A stretch of 55,617 nt of DNA, taken from an uncultured Pseudomonadales bacterium (GTDB taxonomy: Bacteria; Patescibacteriota; Microgenomatia; UBA1400; PJMF01). Both the position numbers and the translations under genes were made by a program. Of this stretch, positions 30,781 to 48,130 are shown in pieces (within the stretch, counting starts at the first letter, position 1; every line of letters starts with the position of its first letter). The stretch spans positions 1 to 55,617 of the forward strand of contig CAZKVV010000004.1 of assembly GCA_964556485.1 (NCBI GenBank), given 5' to 3'. Under the pieces are notes generated by a model that was not told the DNA's origin, did not search any database, and saw only the letters and a list, made by a program, of their open reading frames with translations.

Positions 30781-30788
30781 CTATATCA

Positions 30789-30813
30789 TGCGCGAGGCTT
30801 TATGCCTCGCGCA
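30789..30813 (+). terminator. Strong hairpin, likely terminator
   Basis: TGCGCGAGGC-TTTAT-GCCTCGCGCA followed by a pyrimidine tract. Confidence 0.65.
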
Positions 30814-30877
30814 CTTTCACCTTCTTCTCTCCATTTTTTCCTTTTTCATTTTCTTTGTATTGTTAAATAGATCGTGT

Positions 30878-30898
30878 TGTACCAGTCTGGTACAGACT
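30878..30898. promoter_or_regulatory. Palindromic putative operator upstream of sufC
   Basis: TGTACCAG-T-CTGGTACA (30878-30894) overlapping AGTCTG-GTA-CAGACT (30884-30898). Confidence 0.4.
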
Positions 30899-30940
30899 AA
30901 GTTCGCGCATCCAGGCTCATTCCTGTATAATCCCTCGCAT

Positions 30941-31699
30941 ATGCCAAGCTTATTGACACTCAAAAATCTCAAAGTAGCTATTGCCGAGACTCAAATTTTA
31001 AAAGGCATAAATCTTTCTGTGAATGCGGGTGAAGTTCATGCGATTATGGGTCCAAATGGCTCAGGCAAATCAACTACTGCTGCTACTTTAGCTGGTCATC
31101 CAGATTATGAAGTGATAGGTGGTGATGTGTTGTTGGCAGGAAAATCTATTTTAGAGTTATCTCCAGATCAACGAGCTCAAGCTGGTTTGTTTTTAGCCTT
31201 TCAGTATCCTGTAGAAGTTCCCGGTGTGAAAGTGCAAAACTTTTTACGCCATGTGCACCAAGCTCGTTTTGCCGATGAACCAAAGAAACAGTTTGCCAAA
31301 ACGCTCGAATTCAGAAAACATTTGCAAAAACTGGCTGAGGAATTACAAATTGATCCAACACTGCTTACCAGAGGTCTCAATGAAGGTTTTAGCGGTGGGG
31401 AGAAAAAGCAGTTAGAAATTTTACAAATGGCGGTTCTTGAGCCCAAAATTGCCATTTTAGATGAGACAGACTCTGGCTTGGATATTGATGCCATCAAAAA
31501 GGTTTCGGCTGGAGTGATGAAAATCATCAAAAAGTACAACACGGGAGTGTTGGTAATTACCCATTATAAGCGAATTTTAGAGTATCTTAAGCCAAATTTT
31601 GTACACGTGATGATTAAAGGCGAGCTAGTGCAAAGTGGTGGTCCAGAATTAGTTGATACAATTGAGGCTTCAGGATATAAAACAGTACTTGAAAAGTAG
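30941..31699 (+). CDS. sufC: Fe-S cluster assembly ATPase SufC
   Basis: MGPNGSGKST, FLAFQYPVEVPGV, NEGFSGGEKK, LDETDSGLD. Confidence 0.97.
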   Translation: MPSLLTLKNLKVAIAETQILKGINLSVNAGEVHAIMGPNGSGKSTTAATLAGHPDYEVIGGDVLLAGKSILELSPDQRAQAGLFLAFQYPVEVPGVKVQNFLRHVHQARFADEPKKQFAKTLEFRKHLQKLAEELQIDPTLLTRGLNEGFSGGEKKQLEILQMAVLEPKIAILDETDSGLDIDAIKKVSAGVMKIIKKYNTGVLVITHYKRILEYLKPNFVHVMIKGELVQSGGPELVDTIEASGYKTVLEK

Positions 31700-31709
31700 A
31701 AGGCATATC

Positions 31710-32195
31710 ATGACACGCGCTTCACATCATCTGACAGAAAACGTAAAGTTGCTGCAAAAAGCGGTGGTAGTGCATCGTGGTGAAGTATTATTGCTGCGAC
31801 GAGATGCTAACTCCGCCTCGCGAGCCCTACAGTGGGATTTACCAGGTGGAAATTCTGAGTGGCCAGATGGTAGTCGTAGTGGAAATAACTTGCATGCTCA
31901 AGACATTGCTCGAGAAATTGAAGAAGAAACTGCAATTCATATTATTCCCGATCAATTTAAACATGACACACTGTTGCTTTTCGAAACCTATTTTTTTGCT
32001 GAAGTGTTCACCATACTTGTCGGTTGGTTAGTTGAATTGCCAGAAGATTTTGACAGAGATCAAGTGAAAATTAGCCACGAGCACGACCAACTGGTATGGC
32101 AGCCTTTTGAAGAAAGTGCAGGATATGACTTTGGTTTTGCCAATGAGTTTATTGTGCCAATGATTCGACGCGCAAAGGATAAAACGCATGGCTAG
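31710..32195 (+). CDS. NUDIX hydrolase inserted in the SUF operon
   Basis: WDLPGG...IAREIEEETA, ISHEH. Confidence 0.85.
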   Translation: MTRASHHLTENVKLLQKAVVVHRGEVLLLRRDANSASRALQWDLPGGNSEWPDGSRSGNNLHAQDIAREIEEETAIHIIPDQFKHDTLLLFETYFFAEVFTILVGWLVELPEDFDRDQVKISHEHDQLVWQPFEESAGYDFGFANEFIVPMIRRAKDKTHG

Positions 32196-33609
32196 GTTTG
32201 CACAAAAAACCACCACTCAGTTTGAGGCTACAGATGTGTATGAGCACGGTTATTCCTATCCCATTTCTACCTACACACACATTTCGAAACCAGGTTTGAG
32301 TGAAGCAGTGGTGCGTGAGATTTCGCACTTGAAGCAAGAGCCTGAGTGGATGCTTGGGTATCGTTTGCAAGCACTGGCACAATTTGAAGCAAAAAAAAAT
32401 CCACTTTGGGGAGCAGATCTTTCTGACATTCATTTTGATGCGATTCGTTATTATTTACGTGCTAGTGATGAACAAAGCAAATCTTGGGATGATGTCCCGC
32501 CTGAGGTGAAAGCTACTTTTGATCGTTTGGGAATTCCCGAGGCAGAACGAGATGTCTTAGCTGGTGTAAAAGCTCAGTACGATTCAGAAGTGGTGTATGG
32601 ATCGCTCAAAGATGTTTGGGCAAAAGACGGTGTGGTATTTTTATCAATGGATGATGGATTGAAACAGTATCCAGAGTTGGTAAAAGAGTACTTCGGCACG
32701 CTCATTCCTAGCGGTGACAATAAGTATTCAGCATTGAACTCAGCAGTTTGGAGTGGTGGATCTTTTGTATACATCCCAAAAGGTGTTAATGTAAAAATGC
32801 CGCTGCAAACGTATTTTAGAATTAATGCTGAGAATGCTGGACAGTTTGAGCGTACGCTCATCATTGTGGATGAAGGTGCTAATGTTCACTATATCGAAGG
32901 CTGCACAGCTCCTAACTTCAGCAGTGGTTCTCTCCATTCAGCAGTTGTTGAAATTTTTGTCAAAAAAGGAGCGCGTTGTCAGTACACCACCGTCCAAAAC
33001 TGGTACAAGAATGTGTATAACTTGGTGACCAAACGTGCCCATGTGGATGAAGAGGCTCAAATGATTTGGACAGACTTTAACATGGGTTCCAAAGTGACAA
33101 TGAAGTATCCTGGTTTTGTGTTGGCTGGTAAAGGTGCCAAGGGTGAAACACTTTCTATGGCGTTAGCGGGAAGTGGACAGCATCAAGATACTGGTTCAAA
33201 AGCAATTCATTTAGCTCCATATACCAGTTCAACCATTTTATCGAAATCAATCAGTAAAGATGGTGGACGCACCAGTTATCGTGGACTCGTCAATGTTGGG
33301 CCGCATGCGCATGACAGTAAAAATACGGTGATTTGTGATGCGCTGCTGCTTGATAGTCGTTCACGCTCTGACACGTATCCTGTCGACAAAATTTTTAATT
33401 CTCGTGTTGAAGTACAGCATGAAGCAACGGTGTCAAAGATCGGTGATGATCAGCTGTTTTATCTGATGAGTAGAGGAGTAACCGAGGAAAATGCACGCAA
33501 AATGATTGTAAATGGCTTTGTTGAAGATTTGGTTAAAAAATTGCCACTCGAGTATGCAGTGGAGATGAATCGACTCATTGATCACGAAATGGAAGGAAGC
33601 ATTGGCTAA
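32188..33609 (+). CDS. sufB: Fe-S cluster assembly protein SufB
   Basis: NSAVWSGGSF, GQFERTLI, EGCTAP, CDALL, QHEATV. Confidence 0.98.
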   Translation: MARFAQKTTTQFEATDVYEHGYSYPISTYTHISKPGLSEAVVREISHLKQEPEWMLGYRLQALAQFEAKKNPLWGADLSDIHFDAIRYYLRASDEQSKSWDDVPPEVKATFDRLGIPEAERDVLAGVKAQYDSEVVYGSLKDVWAKDGVVFLSMDDGLKQYPELVKEYFGTLIPSGDNKYSALNSAVWSGGSFVYIPKGVNVKMPLQTYFRINAENAGQFERTLIIVDEGANVHYIEGCTAPNFSSGSLHSAVVEIFVKKGARCQYTTVQNWYKNVYNLVTKRAHVDEEAQMIWTDFNMGSKVTMKYPGFVLAGKGAKGETLSMALAGSGQHQDTGSKAIHLAPYTSSTILSKSISKDGGRTSYRGLVNVGPHAHDSKNTVICDALLLDSRSRSDTYPVDKIFNSRVEVQHEATVSKIGDDQLFYLMSRGVTEENARKMIVNGFVEDLVKKLPLEYAVEMNRLIDHEMEGSIG

Positions 33610-34097
33610 TGCAGACGTTTACCATCGACCGCGACCAATATCAAGAAATACAACTCACCAAACCTGGTGAGTACACTGTGGAGTTAGTTGGCGAAGGGGC
33701 CCAGGCAACCATCACTGGTGTTTGGGATGCGCGTGGTAAAGATGTGGTCAGTGTTACAGTTATCATTCATCACAAAGCGCCAAATACTCGGGCTCAAACA
33801 ACACTGCATGGCGTGGGTCGTGACACCTCTTTTGTGCGATTTGTAGGCCGAATCATTATCGAACCTAACTGTGGGAATAGTAATTCATTCTTAACTGAAA
33901 GAGTGTTGCTACTATCAGATACTGCCAGAGCAGAAACAGTGCCCGACTTAGAAATTCACACTGATGATGTTAAGTGCTCGCACGCTGCAAGTATTAGCAG
34001 AATTCCAGAACAACAATTATTTTATTTACAAAGTCGCAGCATTGCTCGCGCAACTGCGGAGGACATGATAGTTGCGGGTTTTTTAGAGTTAGCATAA
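33609..34097 (+). CDS. sufD: Short SufD-like protein
   Basis: VPDLEIHTDDVKCSHAAS, LFYLQSR; only 162 aa. Confidence 0.85.
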   Translation: MQTFTIDRDQYQEIQLTKPGEYTVELVGEGAQATITGVWDARGKDVVSVTVIIHHKAPNTRAQTTLHGVGRDTSFVRFVGRIIIEPNCGNSNSFLTERVLLLSDTARAETVPDLEIHTDDVKCSHAASISRIPEQQLFYLQSRSIARATAEDMIVAGFLELA

Positions 34098-34126
34098 TTT
34101 CTTGATGAGACTGGTACAATACTCGT

Positions 34127-35365
34127 ATGTTGGATGTTGCCTCAATTCGTACCGATTTTCCCATTCTTACTAAAAGTGTGCATTCCAAGCCGCTAGTGTA
34201 TCTGGATAATGCGGCAACTTCACAAAAACCTCAACAAGTTATAGATGCAATTACTAATTATTACACGAGCCATACCGCCAACGTGCACAGAGGCGTGCAT
34301 CTACTTTCGGATGAAAGCACGCTAGCTTGGGAAGTGGCAAGAAAAACCATTGCGTCTTTTTTTGAAGCAGAGCCGAGTGAGTTGATTTTTGTCCGCAACA
34401 CTACCGAGGCTATCAATGGTTTGGCATACGGTTGGGCAGATTACAACCTCAAACCTGGTGATGTCATTTTGACTTCTCAACTTGAGCATCATGCCAACTT
34501 AGTCGTATGGCAACAAGTGTGCAAGAGAACAGGTTGTAAGTTACAGGTTGCGCCAGTTACCCAGCAAGGTGAACTTGATTATGCTTGGTTGGAAGAACAC
34601 ATGTCGAGCGTAAAGCTGGTGACTTTGGGTCACGTTTCAAATACACTGGGAACGGTGTTAGACGTGCCACGAGTGGTTGCGTTAGCCAAGAAGGCTGGTG
34701 CGCGAGTGCATCTTGATGGTGCTCAGTCTGCTCCTCATATGCCGGTTAGCTTTGCCAATGTAGACGTCGATTTTTTTTCATTTAGTGGTCACAAAATGCT
34801 CGGACCAATGGGTAGTGGTGGACTGTTAGTGAAACGCTCAATTCTTGAGAGTGGTGAAATGCAGCCTTGGTTATTTGGAGGAGGAATGATTGCTGAAGTT
34901 TCCGATCAAGAAACAATTTTTCATCCAGATGTAGTTGAACGTTTTACGGCTGGAACCCCCGACGTTGCTTCTGCAGTTGGTTTGGCAGCGGCCTGCAGTT
35001 ATTTGCAGTCACTTGATATGAAAAAAGTGCTCGAACATGACCAAAAACTTGTTGCATATGCACTTTCAGCATTAAGAGCAGTGTCAGAGATTGAGGTTGT
35101 TGGTCCAGTGACTGACAGAATTGGTAGTGTGGCATTTGTCTATAAAGGCGTGCATGCTCATGATGTTGCGCAAGTGTTAGATAGTGAAGGTGTTGCGGTT
35201 CGATCTGGTCACCACTGCACAATGCCATTGCACACAGCTTGCAACTGGATCGCAACAGTACGCGCTAGTTTTCAGGTTTACAATGATCTACATGAAGTAG
35301 ATGCATTAGTTGCAGCACTCAAAAAAGTAGTAGTAGTGTTTGGAAGAAAAGAGCATGGTGGTTGA
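34127..35365 (+). CDS. sufS: Cysteine desulfurase SufS
   Basis: YLDNAATSQKP, SGHKMLGP, RSGHHC. Confidence 0.98.
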   Translation: MLDVASIRTDFPILTKSVHSKPLVYLDNAATSQKPQQVIDAITNYYTSHTANVHRGVHLLSDESTLAWEVARKTIASFFEAEPSELIFVRNTTEAINGLAYGWADYNLKPGDVILTSQLEHHANLVVWQQVCKRTGCKLQVAPVTQQGELDYAWLEEHMSSVKLVTLGHVSNTLGTVLDVPRVVALAKKAGARVHLDGAQSAPHMPVSFANVDVDFFSFSGHKMLGPMGSGGLLVKRSILESGEMQPWLFGGGMIAEVSDQETIFHPDVVERFTAGTPDVASAVGLAAACSYLQSLDMKKVLEHDQKLVAYALSALRAVSEIEVVGPVTDRIGSVAFVYKGVHAHDVAQVLDSEGVAVRSGHHCTMPLHTACNWIATVRASFQVYNDLHEVDALVAALKKVVVVFGRKEHGG

Positions 35366-35741
35366 CGATTTATATAAGGAAGTGTTGCTTGAAGAAGCAG
35401 AAAATCCAAAAAACAAAGGGGTCTTAACAGATGCTCAAGTGGTTGTGCCGCTTAAAAATGCTTCATGTGGTGATATGGTAACTCTGTACCTAAAAATGTC
35501 AGACGACGGCCTGATTGAAGCAATATCATGGGAGGGCGATGGCTGCGTGATTTCACAAGCTGCCGCAAGTGTGGTTAGTGAGACTGTCAAAGGTAAATCG
35601 ATTGCAGATGTGACTGCACTGGGTTTGCCAGAGGTGCTTGAGTTGCTTCATTTTGACACCATTTCTCCTGGCCGTATAAAGTGTAGTATGCTAGGACTCA
35701 CTGCAATTAAAAATGCATTACAAAAAATAGCGGGAGAATGA
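35355..35741 (+). CDS. sufU: SufU/NifU-N sulfur-transfer protein
   Basis: NASCGD, GCVISQAAAS, RIKC. Confidence 0.92.
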   Translation: MVVDDLYKEVLLEEAENPKNKGVLTDAQVVVPLKNASCGDMVTLYLKMSDDGLIEAISWEGDGCVISQAAASVVSETVKGKSIADVTALGLPEVLELLHFDTISPGRIKCSMLGLTAIKNALQKIAGE

Positions 35742-43343: not shown

Positions 43344-43355
43344 TAATGAAGAGTG

Positions 43356-43865
43356 ATGAAAAAAGTCTTACTGCCCTCAATTTTATTACTAATTGTTTTA
43401 TTCTTTCCAAGTTCAGCGTTTGCACAGTCGATCGGTATAACTAGTATCGGTGGCGTTCCCACTACAGGAAACATAACGACATGGACTCACCAAGGTTTTA
43501 ACCCATTACTCGTTGGTGTTGCTACGCCTTCCGCAGTCGTGCGTATCGATATTGGTAGCGCAACTGCTTCAACAGCTGCGGCTTCAACAGGTGCATGGCA
43601 GTACAAACCAACCGACCTTGATGCATTGGGTAGTTATTCCGTTTCAGTTTCTTCAGGTGGTCAGAGCATGTTATTTACACTCGGAATAACTGCAACCGCT
43701 TCGGCGACTCCAACTCCTGCAAGTACTGCTAGCGCACAACTTCCAACCGAACTTCCTAAGACAGGTTCTGATGACATTGTATTGTTATTTGTCGGTGGAG
43801 CATTCTTAATATTGACAGGAAGCTACACGGGAGCATATCTTATGGGATTTTTTAGAGAAGAATAG
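43356..43865 (+). CDS. Secreted Ser/Thr-rich protein with an LPxTG sorting motif
   Basis: Signal peptide (AFA|Q), LPKTG at 43752-43766 followed by a TM helix. Confidence 0.7.
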   Translation: MKKVLLPSILLLIVLFFPSSAFAQSIGITSIGGVPTTGNITTWTHQGFNPLLVGVATPSAVVRIDIGSATASTAAASTGAWQYKPTDLDALGSYSVSVSSGGQSMLFTLGITATASATPTPASTASAQLPTELPKTGSDDIVLLFVGGAFLILTGSYTGAYLMGFFREE

Positions 43866-43900: not shown

Positions 43901-44962
43901 ATGAGTGACTACAAACAGGTACTTGAACAAGAGATTCAGCAAATTAAAGATAAGGTTGCAGCCGCGACCGATCTTCCCGAAGAGATGCGCAGTAAGATTG
44001 ATAAAGATATAATTGCGCTTGAACGTAGCGTAGCTGTTGGCAACTACGACGAGAAGTACGAGAAGGTTTCTCGCTATGTTGACTGGATGCTAAAAGTGCC
44101 CTGGAAAAAAGAGTCAGAAGACATTTTGGACGTTCAAAAAACCGCTGCCATCTTCGAAAAGCATCATTTCGGCATGATGGAGGTCAAAGAACGTTTTTTG
44201 GAATACGTTTCAGTGCTTAAACTCAGAAAGCAGAATTTTGGTGATGCGGAGTTTAGAGCCCCAATTTTGCTTTTAGTTGGTTTGGTAGGTACTGGTAAAA
44301 CGACGTTTGCTATTTCTCTGGCTGAAGCGCTGGGTAGGCAGCTTGTTCGCATTCCTTTTGGAGGTATGGGATCAGCCTTAGAACTTCGTGGTAGCTCACG
44401 ATTGAATTTAGAGGCTGAGCCGGGCAAAATTCTCAAGGGCGTATGTGAAGCCGGCGTACGAAATCCCATCATTTTGCTAGATGAAATTGATCGCGGTAGC
44501 GAAGACGCAAACAAAGACATTATGGGCGTTTTGGTTGAGTTACTTGACCCCAATCAGAACGTTGCATTTAGAGATGCCTACGTCGATTTTCCAATTAACC
44601 TTTCACATGCAATTTTTATTGCTACAGCAAACAATACAGTTGCTATTGCAACAGCTGTTATGGACCGTATGGAAAAAATCACCATGCCGTCTTATACCGA
44701 CCAAGAAAAGATAGTTATTGCTCAACGCTATGTGTTGCCGGGTTTGCTGAAAGAGGCCGGACTCAAGCCTGAACAATTAGTAATTAAAGATGAAGTATGG
44801 CCCAATATTACTCGTCCTCTTGGATATGATGCTGGAATTCGTACACTCCAAAGGACTTTGCAAGGTGCAGTGCGCAAAGCTGCCAGATTAATAGTTGAAA
44901 AAGGTTATCCCGTCATTGTAATTAACATGGACAATCGAAAAATATTTTTACCTCAGTACTAA
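43901..44962 (+). CDS. Lon-type AAA+ module without N-domain or protease domain
   Basis: YVDWMLKVPW, HFGMMEVKERFLEY, GLVGTGKT, LLDEID, ELLDPNQN..FRD, ATAN, MDRME, AGIRTL. Confidence 0.9.
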   Translation: MSDYKQVLEQEIQQIKDKVAAATDLPEEMRSKIDKDIIALERSVAVGNYDEKYEKVSRYVDWMLKVPWKKESEDILDVQKTAAIFEKHHFGMMEVKERFLEYVSVLKLRKQNFGDAEFRAPILLLVGLVGTGKTTFAISLAEALGRQLVRIPFGGMGSALELRGSSRLNLEAEPGKILKGVCEAGVRNPIILLDEIDRGSEDANKDIMGVLVELLDPNQNVAFRDAYVDFPINLSHAIFIATANNTVAIATAVMDRMEKITMPSYTDQEKIVIAQRYVLPGLLKEAGLKPEQLVIKDEVWPNITRPLGYDAGIRTLQRTLQGAVRKAARLIVEKGYPVIVINMDNRKIFLPQY

Positions 44963-44999: not shown

Positions 45000-45626
45000 A
45001 TGGATTTCATCACGACCATCGACGAATTGCGAGAACATATCGAATCCCAGGCTAATGTGTTGCCACTGGTTGCAAACAAGTTGGAAATTATTCCAGGTGA
45101 AGGCCCACAAACGGCAGAAATAGTTTTTATCGGTGAAGCACCTGGATATCATGAAACAGTTGCGCGGAAGCCGTTTGTTGGTAGGTCTGGGCAGTTGTTT
45201 AGATCTGCGTTGCGTGATGCTGGCTTTGCTGAGACGGATGTATTCATCACTAATATTGTAAAAGCGAGACCGCCTGAAAATAGAGATCCACTTCCCTATG
45301 AAATTGGAGCGTATGCACCATTTTTAGATAAAGAAATCGAGTTGATTTCGCCAAAGCTCATTGTTACTCTCGGCAGATTAAGTATGGCAAAATTTTTACC
45401 AGATGTGAAAATTTCACAAGTTCATGGTCGACTGCACAAAGTCAAGTGGAATGAAGTAAGTCAGTTTGTTCTGCCAATGTATCATCCTGCAGCTGCATTA
45501 AGGGCAACACAAGTAAAGAACTCTTTTCTCTCTGACTTTGGTAAAATAAACAAGATTGTGCAGTGGATAAGGGAACAAAACAGCTCAGCTTTACTTACTG
45601 AAGCCGTCACAGAATACCTCTTTTAG
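45000..45626 (+). CDS. Family-4 uracil-DNA glycosylase lacking Fe-S cysteines
   Basis: GEAPG, PFVGRSG, TNIVKARPPENRDP, HPAA; no Cys. Confidence 0.92.
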   Translation: MDFITTIDELREHIESQANVLPLVANKLEIIPGEGPQTAEIVFIGEAPGYHETVARKPFVGRSGQLFRSALRDAGFAETDVFITNIVKARPPENRDPLPYEIGAYAPFLDKEIELISPKLIVTLGRLSMAKFLPDVKISQVHGRLHKVKWNEVSQFVLPMYHPAAALRATQVKNSFLSDFGKINKIVQWIREQNSSALLTEAVTEYLF

Positions 45627-45634
45627 AAAAAATA

Positions 45635-46438
45635 ATGAAGATTCTTTTACTTTCGATTCCATTCATAACCACTTTGCTTGGTTTTATCATTTATCGTTAT
45701 CAAGATAAAAGGCAGTGGCAGATTTTTAGGTTAGATCTAGTGCAGTTCACTTATTTATTTTTATTTGCACCAACCATTTATGTATGGTCGAAGTCGTTTT
45801 TATTTTATTTGCTTCGCAATGAGCTTAATTTGAGCTTAACTCCCACAGGACTTTTTGTGATTGATACGGTGTACTCGGTGCTTGCCTTTGTTGTGTTTGG
45901 AGCAACAGCTATGCACTCACTTACCAAGACATTTTGGCTGCGACGTCATCATGATCCCAAGTTTGACATTTATAGTTTGTCAGAATATTTTCACCTGTAT
46001 TGGACGCATATAGTTATGTGGAATGGAATAATGATCCTCTTAACCTTTATTGCTTTTGTCAACGTTTTCGTACCATTTGCTGGTGAAAATATGCAAAAAA
46101 CATTTTGGGCAATAATTGTGTTAGGTCTTGCATCTGGTGTAAGTACCTTTATGGGTATTTGGGGTTCAGATCCGGGCCAGGGCAACTTTATGAGATTGAT
46201 GAAACTGTGTTTTATGATGTTCTTTTTCATTCATGTTGTGATGTACTTTGTTTTTGATCCACCATTTAAGTTAGCTCATAGTATGTATTGGTTTTCGTTT
46301 TTCCACTTTTTGGGAGGTGCTGTAGGCGCATTCTTCTTTGAAAAATCGGAAAAAGCTAAGCAAGTTCGAGGATTATGGTTGCATGTAGGTTGGGGGGAGA
46401 ATAAAGATATTCAGCTCTTCCCGTTCAAAAAGAAATAA
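45635..46438 (+). CDS. Multi-pass membrane protein of unknown function
   Basis: About seven hydrophobic helices. Confidence 0.7.
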   Translation: MKILLLSIPFITTLLGFIIYRYQDKRQWQIFRLDLVQFTYLFLFAPTIYVWSKSFLFYLLRNELNLSLTPTGLFVIDTVYSVLAFVVFGATAMHSLTKTFWLRRHHDPKFDIYSLSEYFHLYWTHIVMWNGIMILLTFIAFVNVFVPFAGENMQKTFWAIIVLGLASGVSTFMGIWGSDPGQGNFMRLMKLCFMMFFFIHVVMYFVFDPPFKLAHSMYWFSFFHFLGGAVGAFFFEKSEKAKQVRGLWLHVGWGENKDIQLFPFKKK

Positions 46439-46465: not shown

Positions 46466-48130
46466 ATGGACACTTTAAAAATTATTCCACTTGGCGGCAT
46501 GGGTAATGTTACCCAAAATATGTTTGTGTATGAGTATGGAGATGAAATGCTCATCGTTGATTGTGGCATTGGCTTTCCTGATTCATATATGCCAGGTGTT
46601 GATATTCTCATTCCTGACACTTCATACGTGTTAAAAAGAATAGAGCAGGGCGCGCGTATTGTTGGTATGATCTTCAGTCATGGTCATGATGACCATATTG
46701 CTGCAACACCATATATTTTTCCACAGCTGCCTGACGATTTTCCACTTTTTGCCTCTGCATTGACTGCTGGATTTGCTGAGCAGCGAATGATGGATGGAAA
46801 AATTTCAAGATCTGTACAAATCATGGCTGATCTCGAGACATTTTCTATCGGCACTCATTTTTCAGCCTATCTTATTCCAGTTACTCATTCAGTTCCCGAT
46901 ACACGACATGTGGTTATTCAAACTCCAGAGGGAATTGTATATCACGGAAGTGATTTTAAGCTCGATCCAGCCCCAGTTGATGGACAATTGACAGATATGG
47001 CTTCGATCAGAGCACTCAAAGATAAAGATGTGTTGTTAATGCTCGTAGACTGTTTACGTGTTGAAAATAGCGAATGGGTGAAGTCTGAGTCAACAGTGGG
47101 TCCTACTATTCAAAAAATTATGGAGAACACTCAGGGCAAACTGGTAATGACATTGATGAGTTCGCATATTCATCGCATTCAACAAACCCTTGATGCAGCT
47201 GAAAAAGTTGGCAGAAAAGTGGTGTTTATTGGTCGTTCTGTTGAGCAAAATGTCGAAGTTGCTTCGCGTCTGGGTAAGCTCATAATCCCAGTTGGCATGC
47301 AAGTTGATAAAAAGCATCTCGATCAAGTTGCTGATAAAGAACTATGCATCATTATTGCAGGCAGCCAGGGTCAAGAAGGTTCATCTTTGGTGCGAGCAAT
47401 TTACGGAGATCACCCAAGTGTGCATATTAAACCAACGGATACAGTGGTCTTTTCGGCAGATGCGATTCCTGGAAACGAAATTAATTTTTATAGCGCAATC
47501 GACGAACTATCAAGAAATAATGTTAAAGTTATTTATCCAGCAATTATGCCTGACTTGCATCAATCAGGTCACGCAAGTTTGCCAGAGCAAATTGAGTTGG
47601 TTGAAGCAGTTAAACCAAAGTACCTTATGCCAGTTGGTGGTGCAGACAGACATAGAGTGCTGTTTTATCATAAAGTTGCGACTCCACTAGGATACACGCA
47701 AGGAACAACTTTGCTTCCTGAAACGGGTGAGGTGTTGGGATTTAGAGATAGAACCTTCTCGGTTGTTGATTCCATAATGCTTCGACCCCAAATTATTGAT
47801 GGTCTTGGTGTGGGAGACGTGGGTCCTATGGTGCTTTCTGACAGAAGAACACTTGGTCAATCCGGTATAGTCGTAGTAGTCATTCCTCGACGACAACGAG
47901 AGTTTGATCTCAAAAACATGCAGATTATTTCTCGAGGATTTGTGTTCATGCAAGATGCTGAAGAAGTCATCTCTTTTATTGAGCGCGAGGCCGCGAGCGT
48001 AGTGGCCAATCCAGAAGGATATAGCTCGGATGAGCAACTGGTGAAACTGATCGAAAAACGATTAGCGCGAAAACTGTACAAAGTAATTCGTCGTGAACCA
48101 ATGATAGTTCCTGTTATTCTTGATATGTAG
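46466..48130 (+). CDS. rnj: Ribonuclease J
   Basis: PLGGMG, DCG, HGHDDH, THSVPD, DFK, SSHIHRIQQ, GSQGQE, HQSGH. Confidence 0.95.
   Translation: MDTLKIIPLGGMGNVTQNMFVYEYGDEMLIVDCGIGFPDSYMPGVDILIPDTSYVLKRIEQGARIVGMIFSHGHDDHIAATPYIFPQLPDDFPLFASALTAGFAEQRMMDGKISRSVQIMADLETFSIGTHFSAYLIPVTHSVPDTRHVVIQTPEGIVYHGSDFKLDPAPVDGQLTDMASIRALKDKDVLLMLVDCLRVENSEWVKSESTVGPTIQKIMENTQGKLVMTLMSSHIHRIQQTLDAAEKVGRKVVFIGRSVEQNVEVASRLGKLIIPVGMQVDKKHLDQVADKELCIIIAGSQGQEGSSLVRAIYGDHPSVHIKPTDTVVFSADAIPGNEINFYSAIDELSRNNVKVIYPAIMPDLHQSGHASLPEQIELVEAVKPKYLMPVGGADRHRVLFYHKVATPLGYTQGTTLLPETGEVLGFRDRTFSVVDSIMLRPQIIDGLGVGDVGPMVLSDRRTLGQSGIVVVVIPRRQREFDLKNMQIISRGFVFMQDAEEVISFIEREAASVVANPEGYSSDEQLVKLIEKRLARKLYKVIRREPMIVPVILDM

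What the first reader, a model, noticed from the sequence alone, without database searches (positions are those of the whole stretch)
45000..45626. Family-4 UDG with all four [4Fe-4S] cysteines gone
The protein has zero Cys. The N-terminal CxxC is absent, KCRPP is KARPP, and the E-x-x-x-C position is EIGAY. Catalytic motifs GEAPG and HPAA are intact. Known: family-4 UDGs use a structural [4Fe-4S] cluster. This is a naturally cluster-free variant in a genome that still encodes SUF, and it could show how the cluster is replaced.
Basis: partly seen in the sequence, partly recalled or inferred. Interest (0 to 1): 0.65.

Follow-up and report, generated by a model that had tools for sequence, protein, structure and literature searches.

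The report
Iron-sulfur-free family-4 uracil-DNA glycosylase
This gene encodes an apparently working uracil-removing DNA repair enzyme whose four iron-sulfur-cluster cysteines are all replaced by ordinary hydrophobic residues. The same change is shared by hundreds of ultra-small (Patescibacteria) bacteria, arose several times, and I found no paper describing it for this enzyme family.

Summary
ORF 45000-45626 (+) encodes a 208-aa protein with no cysteine. It passes NCBI's family-4 UDG model (TIGR00758, 160.6 bits against a cut-off of 125.3). Its AlphaFold model (pLDDT 91) matches solved family-4 UDGs (TM 0.84 to 4zbx). The four [4Fe-4S] ligand positions are A18, L21, A89 and Y105. Motif A (GEAPG), F59, N85 and motif B (HPAA) are intact.

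It is not a one-off and it is not decaying:
- 111 of the 120 closest homologues have no Cys at all.
- At least 318 species genomes carry the K[VA]RPP variant.
- pN is 0.14-0.32 while synonymous sites are saturated.
- It is the only UDG-superfamily gene in a 96.5%-complete 1.09-Mb genome that also has Xth- and Nfo-type AP endonucleases.
- A complete SUF operon lies 10 kb upstream.

In its class, 43 of 90 family-4 UDGs have no ligand Cys and 37 keep CCHC or CCCC. The tree requires at least 4-5 independent losses. The fourth ligand became Tyr or Phe each time.

Most likely this is an active, cofactor-free UDG with the cluster cavity filled by side-chain packing, as in clusterless MutY. I found no description of this in the literature. 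It is a new variant of a known kind, of moderate interest.

The parts
45000..45626 (+). Family-4 uracil-DNA glycosylase gene, 208 aa plus TAG stop, no Cys
   Evidence: ORF. Pfam UDG 3e-31. TIGR00758 160.6 bits, above the 125.3 cut-off. PDB 4zbx 5.9e-36. AF2 pLDDT 91.4; Foldseek TM 0.84 to 4zbx.
45051..45062 (+). A18-N-V-L21: the place of the N-terminal C-x2-C ligands, followed by the conserved P22-L23
   Evidence: Alignment to TM0511 'CTACPL'. Codons checked.
45264..45266 (+). A89: the place of the third ligand (KCRPP becomes KARPP)
   Evidence: This position is A or V in the query's close clade and H, F, Y or D in other clusterless clades.
45312..45314 (+). Y105: the place of the fourth ligand. 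It is aromatic (Y or F) in every independent fully clusterless clade of several sequences.
45132..45146 (+). Motif A, G45-E46-A47-P48-G49 (catalytic water-activating motif of family 4)
   Evidence: Invariant in 121 homologues. GEAPG or GEGPG in 87 of 90 genes of the class.
45174..45176 (+). F59 of 'PFVGRSG', the uracil-pocket aromatic of family 4 by homology
   Evidence: Invariant. Aligned to PFVG in 4zbx, 1l9g and 1ui0.
45252..45254 (+). N85 of 'ITNIVK', the uracil-recognising Asn by homology
   Evidence: Invariant. F plus N present in 85 of 90 genes of the class.
45483..45494 (+). Motif B, H162-P-A-A165 (HPAAALR)
   Evidence: H162 and P163 invariant. HPAA in 75 of 90 genes of the class.
30788..35741 (+). 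Context: SUF Fe-S assembly operon (SufC, a Nudix-like ORF, SufB, short SufD-like, SufS, SufU), 10 kb upstream
   Evidence: PF01458 hits. ORFs. Pfam ABC_tran, SUFBD_core x2, Aminotran_5 and NifU_N. The 'Nudix-like' label for ORF 31653-32195 comes from reading the sequence; I did not test it.

Best explanation
The gene encodes a functional uracil-DNA glycosylase of family 4 that works without the family's [4Fe-4S] cluster. Shown: it has the family-4 sequence signature and fold and all catalytic motifs, and none of the four cluster ligands. It belongs to a large, strongly conserved clade of such proteins in Patescibacteria. It is the genome's only UDG-superfamily gene, and AP endonucleases for the next repair step are present. 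Inferred: in family 4 the cluster is a structural clamp. It ties the N-terminal helix end (CxxC) to the loop between ligands 3 and 4, which lies next to the DNA-binding surface. Here the clamp is replaced, without any insertion or deletion, by side-chain packing in the former cluster cavity. L21 and the aromatic Y105 are the conserved core, and small or bulky hydrophobics at positions 18 and 89 fill the rest. The enzyme then flips out and excises uracil as other family-4 UDGs do (E46 of GEAPG, F59, N85, H162), and hands the abasic site to an Xth- or Nfo-type endonuclease. The cluster was probably lost because a stabilising cofactor that is costly and oxygen-sensitive is dispensable in a mesophilic organism with a reduced genome. 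Repeated independent losses in the same class support dispensability.
For: Family and fold:
- TIGR00758 scores 160.6 bits, above the 125.3 cut-off.
- Best PDB matches are family-4 UDGs 4zbx, 1l9g and 1ui0, E 1e-36 to 1e-29.
- The AF2 model has pLDDT 91.4 and pTM 0.88. The segments holding the former ligands have block pLDDT 96-98.
- Foldseek gives TM 0.81-0.84 to the same structures.

Ligand loss: A18, L21, A89 and Y105 replace the four Cys.

Not a one-off:
- 111 of the 120 nearest homologues (55-94% identical) have no Cys, and all have hydrophobic residues at the four sites.
- 318 species-representative genomes encode a relative matched through the patterns K[VA]RPP[EDG]NRD or [FYV][VI][LM]PM[YF]HPA. 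The 80 examined all lack the ligands.

Selection:
- pN is 0.14-0.32 against pS 0.72-0.85, which is saturated. dN/dS is at most about 0.09-0.16.
- 51 columns are invariant in 121 sequences, including GEAPG, F59, N85 and H162-P163.

Only UDG in the genome. Two Xth-like genes and one Nfo-like gene are present.

Repeated loss:
- In the class, 43 of 90 genes have no ligand Cys, 10 have a partial set, 33 are CCHC and 4 are CCCC. Patterns are family-specific.
- The tree has at least 4-5 separately supported clusterless clades.
- Ligand 4 is Y or F in each of them.

Precedents from papers:
- Cys-to-Ser mutants of P. furiosus and A. fulgidus family-4 UDGs lose only about 40% of activity (PMC5295032).
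- Clusterless MutYs are active, and their cavity is modelled as filled by bulky residues (PMC12631127).
Against: - No biochemical data exist for any member, so activity and metal content are inferred.
- I could not read model coordinates, so contact between residues 18, 21, 89 and 105 is inferred from homology with the cluster site, not measured.
- The covariation that would support direct packing is strong in raw counts: aromatic at position 18 with Phe at 105, odds ratio 7; Val at 89 with Phe at 105, odds ratio 5.6. It is inconclusive once relatedness is controlled for, because there are too few independent pairs.
- In UdgX, mutating one ligand Cys inactivated the protein (PMC4787834). Loss of the cluster is therefore not harmless in every relative.
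- 56 of 151 genomes of the class have no homologue at all, so the function is not indispensable in this lineage.
Confidence: 0.75

Rival explanations
1. The fold and pocket are kept but the job has changed. The clusterless protein would be a weaker or differently specific glycosylase (for example another deaminated or modified base, or ssDNA only), or a uracil-DNA binding protein rather than an efficient housekeeping UDG.
For: Its score on the archaeal equivalog model NF040953 is below the cut-off (167.8 against 250). The basic residue inside the CxxC (R or K in 57 of 68 cluster-type sequences) is lost in all clusterless clades. Since the CxxC segment lies next to the DNA-binding surface, I suspect this could alter DNA contacts. 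UdgX shows that small changes in this fold can turn excision into covalent binding.
Against: Motif A is GEAPG, the family-4 form, not GEQPG. There is no KRRIH loop in the sequence. The UdgX model TIGR03914 is far below its cut-off (94.6 against 189.95). F59, N85 and H162 are invariant. It is the only UDG-superfamily gene in the genome, so uracil repair would otherwise be missing.
Confidence: 0.13
2. The gene is an inactive relic that is decaying after losing its cofactor.
For: All four ligands are gone. 37% of genomes in the class have lost the gene altogether.
Against: The frame is intact. pN is far below the saturated pS. There are 51 invariant columns across 121 homologues down to 55% identity. 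Catalytic motifs are conserved in all clusterless clades. The AF2 model is confident.
Confidence: 0.03
3. The site still binds a metal or another cofactor through non-cysteine ligands.
For: Sister families carry D-L-H-Y, N-L-R-Y or L-S-D-Y at the four positions. Asp, His and Tyr can ligate metals.
Against: This protein and its close clade have Ala, Leu, Ala or Val, and Tyr or Phe there. That leaves at most one possible ligand, and Phe replaces the Tyr freely.
Confidence: 0.04
4. It belongs to a UDG family already known to lack a cluster (family 1 Ung, 2 MUG/TDG, 3 SMUG, 6 HDG) and only looks like family 4.
For: None beyond the absence of Cys.
Against: TIGR00758 is above its cut-off. The top sequence and fold matches are all family 4, then UdgX; TDG comes only at TM 0.62-0.66 and 17-18% identity. 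The gene tree nests it inside cluster-bearing family-4 UDGs of the same class.
Confidence: 0.02

Closest known systems
Family-4 UDG (UDGa): S. tokodaii (4zbx), T. maritima TM0511 (1l9g/1vk2), T. thermophilus UDGA (1ui0)
   Same: 34-38% identical. Same fold (TM 0.81-0.84). Same motif A (GE[AG]PG), PFVG, ITN[IV]VK and motif B (HPAA). Same length of the loop between ligands 3 and 4.
   Different: All four [4Fe-4S] Cys ligands are replaced (A, L, A, Y). It has about 20 extra C-terminal residues forming a long helix, but cluster-bearing relatives in the same class have this too. It comes from a mesophilic, genome-reduced bacterium rather than a thermophile.
CCHC/CCCC family-4 UDGs of other Patescibacteria
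   Same: These are the immediate relatives: same class and phylum, same length, same motifs, 40-55% identity.
   Different: They keep three Cys plus His, the ligand set that holds a cluster in UdgX (PMC4787834), or four Cys. They are the natural comparison partners for experiments.
Clusterless MutY / MutYX adenine glycosylases (PMC12631127)
   Same: A DNA glycosylase family that normally carries a [4Fe-4S] cluster has lost it more than once. The clusterless enzymes are active. The cavity is proposed to be filled by bulky residues.
   Different: Unrelated fold (HhH-GPD, not the alpha/beta UDG fold). It is shown experimentally there and only inferred here.
UdgX (M. smegmatis; 6ail and others)
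   Same: Family-4-like fold (TM 0.67-0.78).
   Different: UdgX has GEQPG and the KRRIH loop, binds a cluster, and cross-links to DNA. The query has none of these, and TIGR03914 is below its cut-off.
UDG domain fused to phage SPO1-type family-A DNA polymerases
   Same: The N-terminal UDG-like domain of SPO1 gp31 also has no Cys at the four positions (S, D, Y, S), with Tyr at ligand 3 as in some Patescibacteria forms.
   Different: It is about 30% identical and fused to a polymerase. Motif A is degenerate (QENPF). The solved phiLo polymerase (9qhs) keeps all four Cys. The two phage-polymerase papers I searched, PMC13697223 and PMC10201439, do not discuss the cluster.

Membership tests
Family-4 UDG (UDGa, TIGR00758) | Score above the curated cut-off of the family HMM | tested here: met
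   TIGR00758 160.6 bits against cut-off 125.3.
Family-4 UDG (UDGa, TIGR00758) | Motif A GE(A/G)PG. UDG families are classified by motifs A and B (PMC4787834). | tested here: met
   G45-E-A-P-G49; invariant in the clade.
Family-4 UDG (UDGa, TIGR00758) | Motif B HPAA(V/L)L | tested here: met
   H162-P-A-A-A-L-R.
Family-4 UDG (UDGa, TIGR00758) | Alpha/beta UDG fold closest to solved family-4 structures | tested here: met
   AF2 pLDDT 91.4. Top six Foldseek hits are 4zbx, 4zby, 1l9g, 1ui0, 1vk2 and 1ui1, TM 0.81-0.84.
Family-4 UDG (UDGa, TIGR00758) | Four Cys ligating a [4Fe-4S] cluster. This is a hallmark in the literature but not the classifying criterion. | tested here: not met
   0 of 4: A18, L21, A89, Y105, and no Cys anywhere. 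I therefore file it as a cofactor-less variant of family 4, not as a typical member.
Family-4 UDG (UDGa, TIGR00758) | Uracil excision from ss and ds DNA, insensitive to Ugi | not testable with these tools
   Needs a recombinant enzyme assay.
Archaeal type-4 UDG equivalog (NF040953) | Score above the equivalog cut-off | tested here: not met
   167.8 bits against 250.
UdgX | Motif A GEQPG, the KRRIH loop, and TIGR03914 above its cut-off | tested here: not met
   GEAPG; no KRRIH in the sequence; TIGR03914 94.6 against 189.95.
Family 5 UDG (UDGb) | Motif A GLAPA, motif B HPSPLN | tested here: not met
   The motifs differ. 2d3y scores only E 1e-5 by sequence and TM 0.59-0.62 by fold.

The most novel reading that the evidence does not exclude
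A large part of the Patescibacteria (about half of the family-4 UDGs in this class, plus lineages in other classes) does its uracil repair with naturally [4Fe-4S]-free family-4 UDGs. These arose at least four or five times and each time converged on an aromatic residue at the fourth ligand position. This genome also has no Nth or MutY, so it would carry out base excision repair without any iron-sulfur glycosylase while still making Fe-S clusters for other proteins. If these enzymes are as proficient as their CCHC sisters, they are a natural experiment. It would show that the cluster in this family is a replaceable structural brace and is not needed for finding lesions.
Probability: 0.55. Interest if true: 0.65.

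Novelty: new variant of a known kind. Interest (0 to 1): 0.55.

Why it matters
Family-4 UDGs are textbook examples of Fe-S DNA repair enzymes. Whether their cluster is only structural or also serves redox-based lesion search is still debated (reviews PMC9266487 and PMC12631127). A natural, diverse set of cluster-free enzymes, with closely related cluster-bearing sisters in the same class, gives matched pairs for testing what the cluster contributes to stability, DNA binding and search. It also shows by convergent evolution how a cubane can be replaced by side chains without changing loop lengths. That is useful for engineering oxygen-tolerant, cofactor-free UDGs. It adds a point about cofactor economy in genome-reduced symbionts. 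It also flags that automatic 'type-4 UDG' annotations should not imply a bound cluster.

Tried and rejected
- C-terminal helix as compensation: rejected. The extra helix (residues 170-207) is not specific to clusterless forms. The median length after the motif-B His is 47 residues in clusterless genes and 52 in cluster-type genes of the same class.
- Covariation among the ex-ligand positions as proof of contact: inconclusive. The raw associations are strong, but the phylogenetically independent-pairs test had too few informative pairs.
- 'Zero Cys' as a statistic: not remarkable on its own, P about 0.2 given 0.76% Cys in the genome.
A narrower one worked.
- Cluster names gave little taxonomy.
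- Aravind & Koonin 2000, Lucas-Lledó 2011 and Engstrom 2012 are not in the held library. I could not check whether they mention Cys-less family-4 sequences.
- The solved phage polymerase 9qhs is not a clusterless precedent. Its UDG domain keeps all four Cys.
- Model coordinates are not exposed, so I measured no inter-residue distances.

Full report
**1. What is there**

The window has an ORF at 45000-45626 on the + strand: ATG to TAG, 208 aa. The translation contains no cysteine.

It matches Pfam UDG (PF03167, 3e-31). It matches NCBIfam TIGR00758 'uracil-DNA glycosylase, family 4' at 160.6 bits, above the curated cut-off of 125.3. The archaeal equivalog NF040953 (167.8 against 250) and the UdgX model TIGR03914 (94.6 against 189.95) are below theirs.

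The best solved relatives are the family-4 UDGs of S. tokodaii (4zbx, 5.9e-36), T. maritima (1l9g/1vk2, about 3e-32) and T. thermophilus (1ui0, 3e-29). UdgX follows at about 1e-10.

**2. The ligand positions**

In an alignment with those three enzymes, the four cluster cysteines of TM0511 fall on A18, L21, A89 and Y105 of the query (codons checked).
- The anchors are unambiguous. 'C-P-L' becomes 'L21-P22-L23'. 'NVVKCRPP' becomes 'NIVKARPP'. 'EEQAAC' becomes 'YEIGAY'.
- The loop between ligands 3 and 4 has the same length.
- The first ligand is uncertain by one residue in another alignment (Q17 or A18). This is immaterial, because there is no Cys anywhere.
- Motif A (G45-E-A-P-G49), F59 of PFVG, N85 of ITNIVK and motif B (H162-P-A-A) are present.

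Zero Cys in 208 residues is not rare for this genome. Cys is 0.76% of long ORFs. The meaningful fact is the loss at the four homologous sites.

**3. Fold**

I built an AlphaFold2 model from 121 aligned sequences. It has mean pLDDT 91.4 and pTM 0.88. The 10-residue blocks holding the former ligands score 96-98. Foldseek against the PDB returns family-4 UDGs as the top six hits (4zbx, TM 0.84, rmsd 2.4 Å, 37% identity; then 1l9g, 1ui0 and others). UdgX follows, then family 5 and TDG much further down. Every solved relative at the top carries a cluster. No clusterless family-4 structure is in the PDB copy searched.

**4. Not a one-off**

- The word-indexed search found 7,916 proteins at E ≤ 1e-10 among the 8,000 candidates scored. 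The best 120 are 55-94% identical. Of these, 111 have no Cys, 7 have one and 2 have two. At the four sites they carry ALAY, ALVY, YFVF, FLVY, FLVF and similar patterns.
- The exhaustive search of 50%-identity representatives found 11,921 proteins at E ≤ 1e-10. Among the best 150, 79 are CCCC, 34 have no Cys at any ligand site, and the rest are partial or C/H variants.
- A scan of one genome per species found 318 relatives through the peptide patterns K[VA]RPP[EDG]NRD or [FYV][VI][LM]PM[YF]HPA. The titles name Pacebacteria, Woesebacteria, Microgenomates and 'Patescibacteria group'. Some carry labels such as 'uncultured Pseudomonadales' and 'Vitreimonas', which I take to be submitter mislabels. 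All 80 loci kept lack the ligands.

**5. The organism and its repair kit**

The assembly is 1.09 Mb in 15 contigs and 96.5% complete.
- The UDG is the only match to the UDG superfamily in it.
- There is no HhH-GPD protein, so no Nth, MutY, Ogg or AlkA.
- Two Exo_endo_phos (Xth-like) genes and one AP_endonuc_2 (Nfo-like) gene are present. The step after uracil excision is therefore covered.
- SUF is complete and lies in the same window: SufC, SufB, a short SufD-like protein, SufS and SufU.

The loss of the cluster in UDG is therefore not part of a general loss of Fe-S biogenesis.

**6. Selection**

Against homologues 48-79% identical in protein, the non-synonymous proportion is 0.14-0.34. The synonymous proportion is 0.72-0.85, which is saturated. 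dN/dS is therefore at most about 0.09-0.16. In 121 sequences, 51 columns are invariant, including all catalytic positions. This excludes a decaying gene.

**7. Distribution and number of losses**

In 401 genomes sampled across the phylum, 286 have a TIGR00758 match. The 30 best-scoring are all CCHC (17), CCCC (12) or CCDC (1). The cluster-type enzyme is therefore common in Patescibacteria.

In 151 genomes of the window's class, 95 have a homologue. I fetched 90 of the genes.
- 43 have no Cys at the ligand sites, 8 have one and 2 have two.
- 33 are CCHC and 4 are CCCC.
- CCHC is the ligand set that holds a cluster in UdgX (PMC4787834).
- Patterns are constant within GTDB families: f5 DLHY, f7 FL[FY]C, f154 TG[FY]F, f163 LGHY, f8 and f10 DLFF. 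An 'LSDY' type is spread over eight families.
- Motif A is GEAPG or GEGPG in 87 of 90, motif B is HPAA in 75 of 90, and F plus N are present in 85 of 90.

I built a maximum-likelihood tree of these genes plus the phylum's cluster-type genes.
- The query sits in a supported clade (SH-aLRT 97) of 19 genes from eight families. Eighteen are clusterless and one has a single Cys.
- Separate clusterless clades are f154+f7 (96), f163+f169, the LSDY group (98, sister to cluster-type genes of other classes), and one AIAF gene inside the CCHC family f155 (95).
- Well-supported branches alone force at least 4-5 changes of state.

A search with the clusterless profile also found ligand-less forms in families of other classes. 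These are f86 DLFF, f120 NLRY, f140 DLRY, f34 -LHY and f69 -LAY, plus forms with one Cys left in f62 (FLFC) and f22 (NCYF/KCYF). Transfer within the phylum and further independent losses cannot be told apart with these data.

**8. What replaces the cluster**

I compared 68 cluster-type and 50 clusterless or partial sequences column by column. The strongest differences are the four ligand columns and the residue between the two N-terminal cysteines. That residue is R or K in 57 of 68 cluster-type sequences, and S, G, L or E in the others.

Ligand 4 is Tyr or Phe in every fully clusterless clade. That is convergence. Ligand 2 is Leu in the query's clade and in f7. Ligand 3 is Ala or Val in the query's close relatives, and His, Phe, Tyr or Asp elsewhere. 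There is no indel. The simplest reading is that side chains fill the cavity and hold the N-terminal helix end against the ligand-3/4 loop.

Within the query's clade (195 sequences), an aromatic at position 18 goes with Phe at 105 (odds ratio 7). Val at 89 also goes with Phe at 105 (odds ratio 5.6). The test on phylogenetically independent pairs had too few informative pairs to confirm coupling. I could not read model coordinates, so contact is inferred, not measured.

The long C-terminal helix is not a compensation. Cluster-type relatives in the class have it too.

**9. What is known**

Every paper I could search treats families 4 and 5 as [4Fe-4S] proteins (PMC4787834, PMC8307549, PMC9266487, PMC5295032). 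Searches for clusterless or Cys-less family-4 UDGs, and for UDG in Patescibacteria, found nothing relevant. The library lacks most subscription papers and three I asked for. Absence is therefore not proof.

Relevant background:
- Cys-to-Ser mutants of archaeal family-4 UDGs keep about 60% of activity (PMC5295032).
- Mutating a ligand Cys inactivated UdgX.
- Clusterless MutYs are active, arose more than once, and are thought to fill the cavity with bulky residues (PMC12631127).
- Among phage UDG-polymerase fusions, SPO1 gp31 has S, D, Y, S at the four sites with a degenerate motif A. phiLo (PDB 9qhs) keeps all four Cys.

It is an AI note, not independent evidence. I tested its claim here on my own data.

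**10. Verdict**

The most likely explanation (0.75) is an active, cofactor-free family-4 UDG in which side-chain packing replaces the cluster.

It is a new variant of a known kind. Interest is moderate (0.55). It would mildly surprise specialists, and the MutY work is a close conceptual precedent. However, it offers matched natural pairs for a direct test of what the cluster does in this family.

Noticed in passing
window 43901-44962 (+): The gene just upstream is a 353-aa Lon-like AAA+ ATPase (Pfam AAA plus Lon_lid) with no protease domain.
   Followed up: no
whole genome G000: No HhH-GPD protein (Nth, MutY, Ogg, AlkA) in a 96.5%-complete genome. The clusterless UDG is the only UDG-superfamily gene. 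The organism may therefore have no Fe-S DNA glycosylase at all. I did not search for Fpg/Nei or Tag-type glycosylases.
   Followed up: partly
window 33609-34097 (+): The SufD-like gene next to SufB is only 162 aa and matches only positions 95-232 of the SUFBD core. This is a truncated SufD in an otherwise complete SufCBDSU operon.
   Followed up: no
window 43353-43865 (+): A 170-aa protein with a signal-peptide-like N-terminus, a Thr/Ala/Ser-rich stretch, 'LPKTGS' followed by a hydrophobic tail (a sortase-type anchor signal), and no Pfam match.
   Followed up: no
window 45635-46438 (+): A 267-aa multi-pass membrane protein directly downstream of the UDG with no Pfam match. RNase J follows at 46466-48130.
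   Followed up: no
loci L127, L139, L141, L143, L147, L148, L171, L179 (family f5/f166 genes) and L150-L159 (f163): Sister families carry Asp-Leu-His-Tyr or Leu-Gly-His-Tyr at the four ex-ligand positions. Asp, His and Tyr could form a mononuclear metal site, an alternative way of replacing the cubane.
   Followed up: no
loci L085-L114 and the class set: The commonest cluster-type ligand set in Patescibacteria family-4 UDGs is C-C-H-C, with His at the third ligand as in UdgX. It occurs in 33 of 37 cluster-type genes in the class and 17 of the 30 best in the phylum, together with ordinary GEAPG/GEGPG motifs. States with one Cys left (FLFC, FLYC, NCYF, HLCY) look like intermediates of decay.
   Followed up: partly
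L208 (Bacillus phage SPO1 gp31, N-terminal domain): The UDG-like domain of the SPO1 DNA polymerase has S, D, Y, S at the four ligand positions and QENPF for motif A. The phiLo polymerase (PDB 9qhs) keeps C, C, C, C. SP-15 gp100 keeps the last two plus an N-terminal C-x3-C.
   Followed up: partly
loci L005, L008, L010, L011 and others: Many species-representative MAGs that carry this Patescibacteria-type gene are titled 'uncultured Pseudomonadales bacterium' or 'Vitreimonas sp.'. These are probably taxonomic mislabels in the public records.
   Followed up: no
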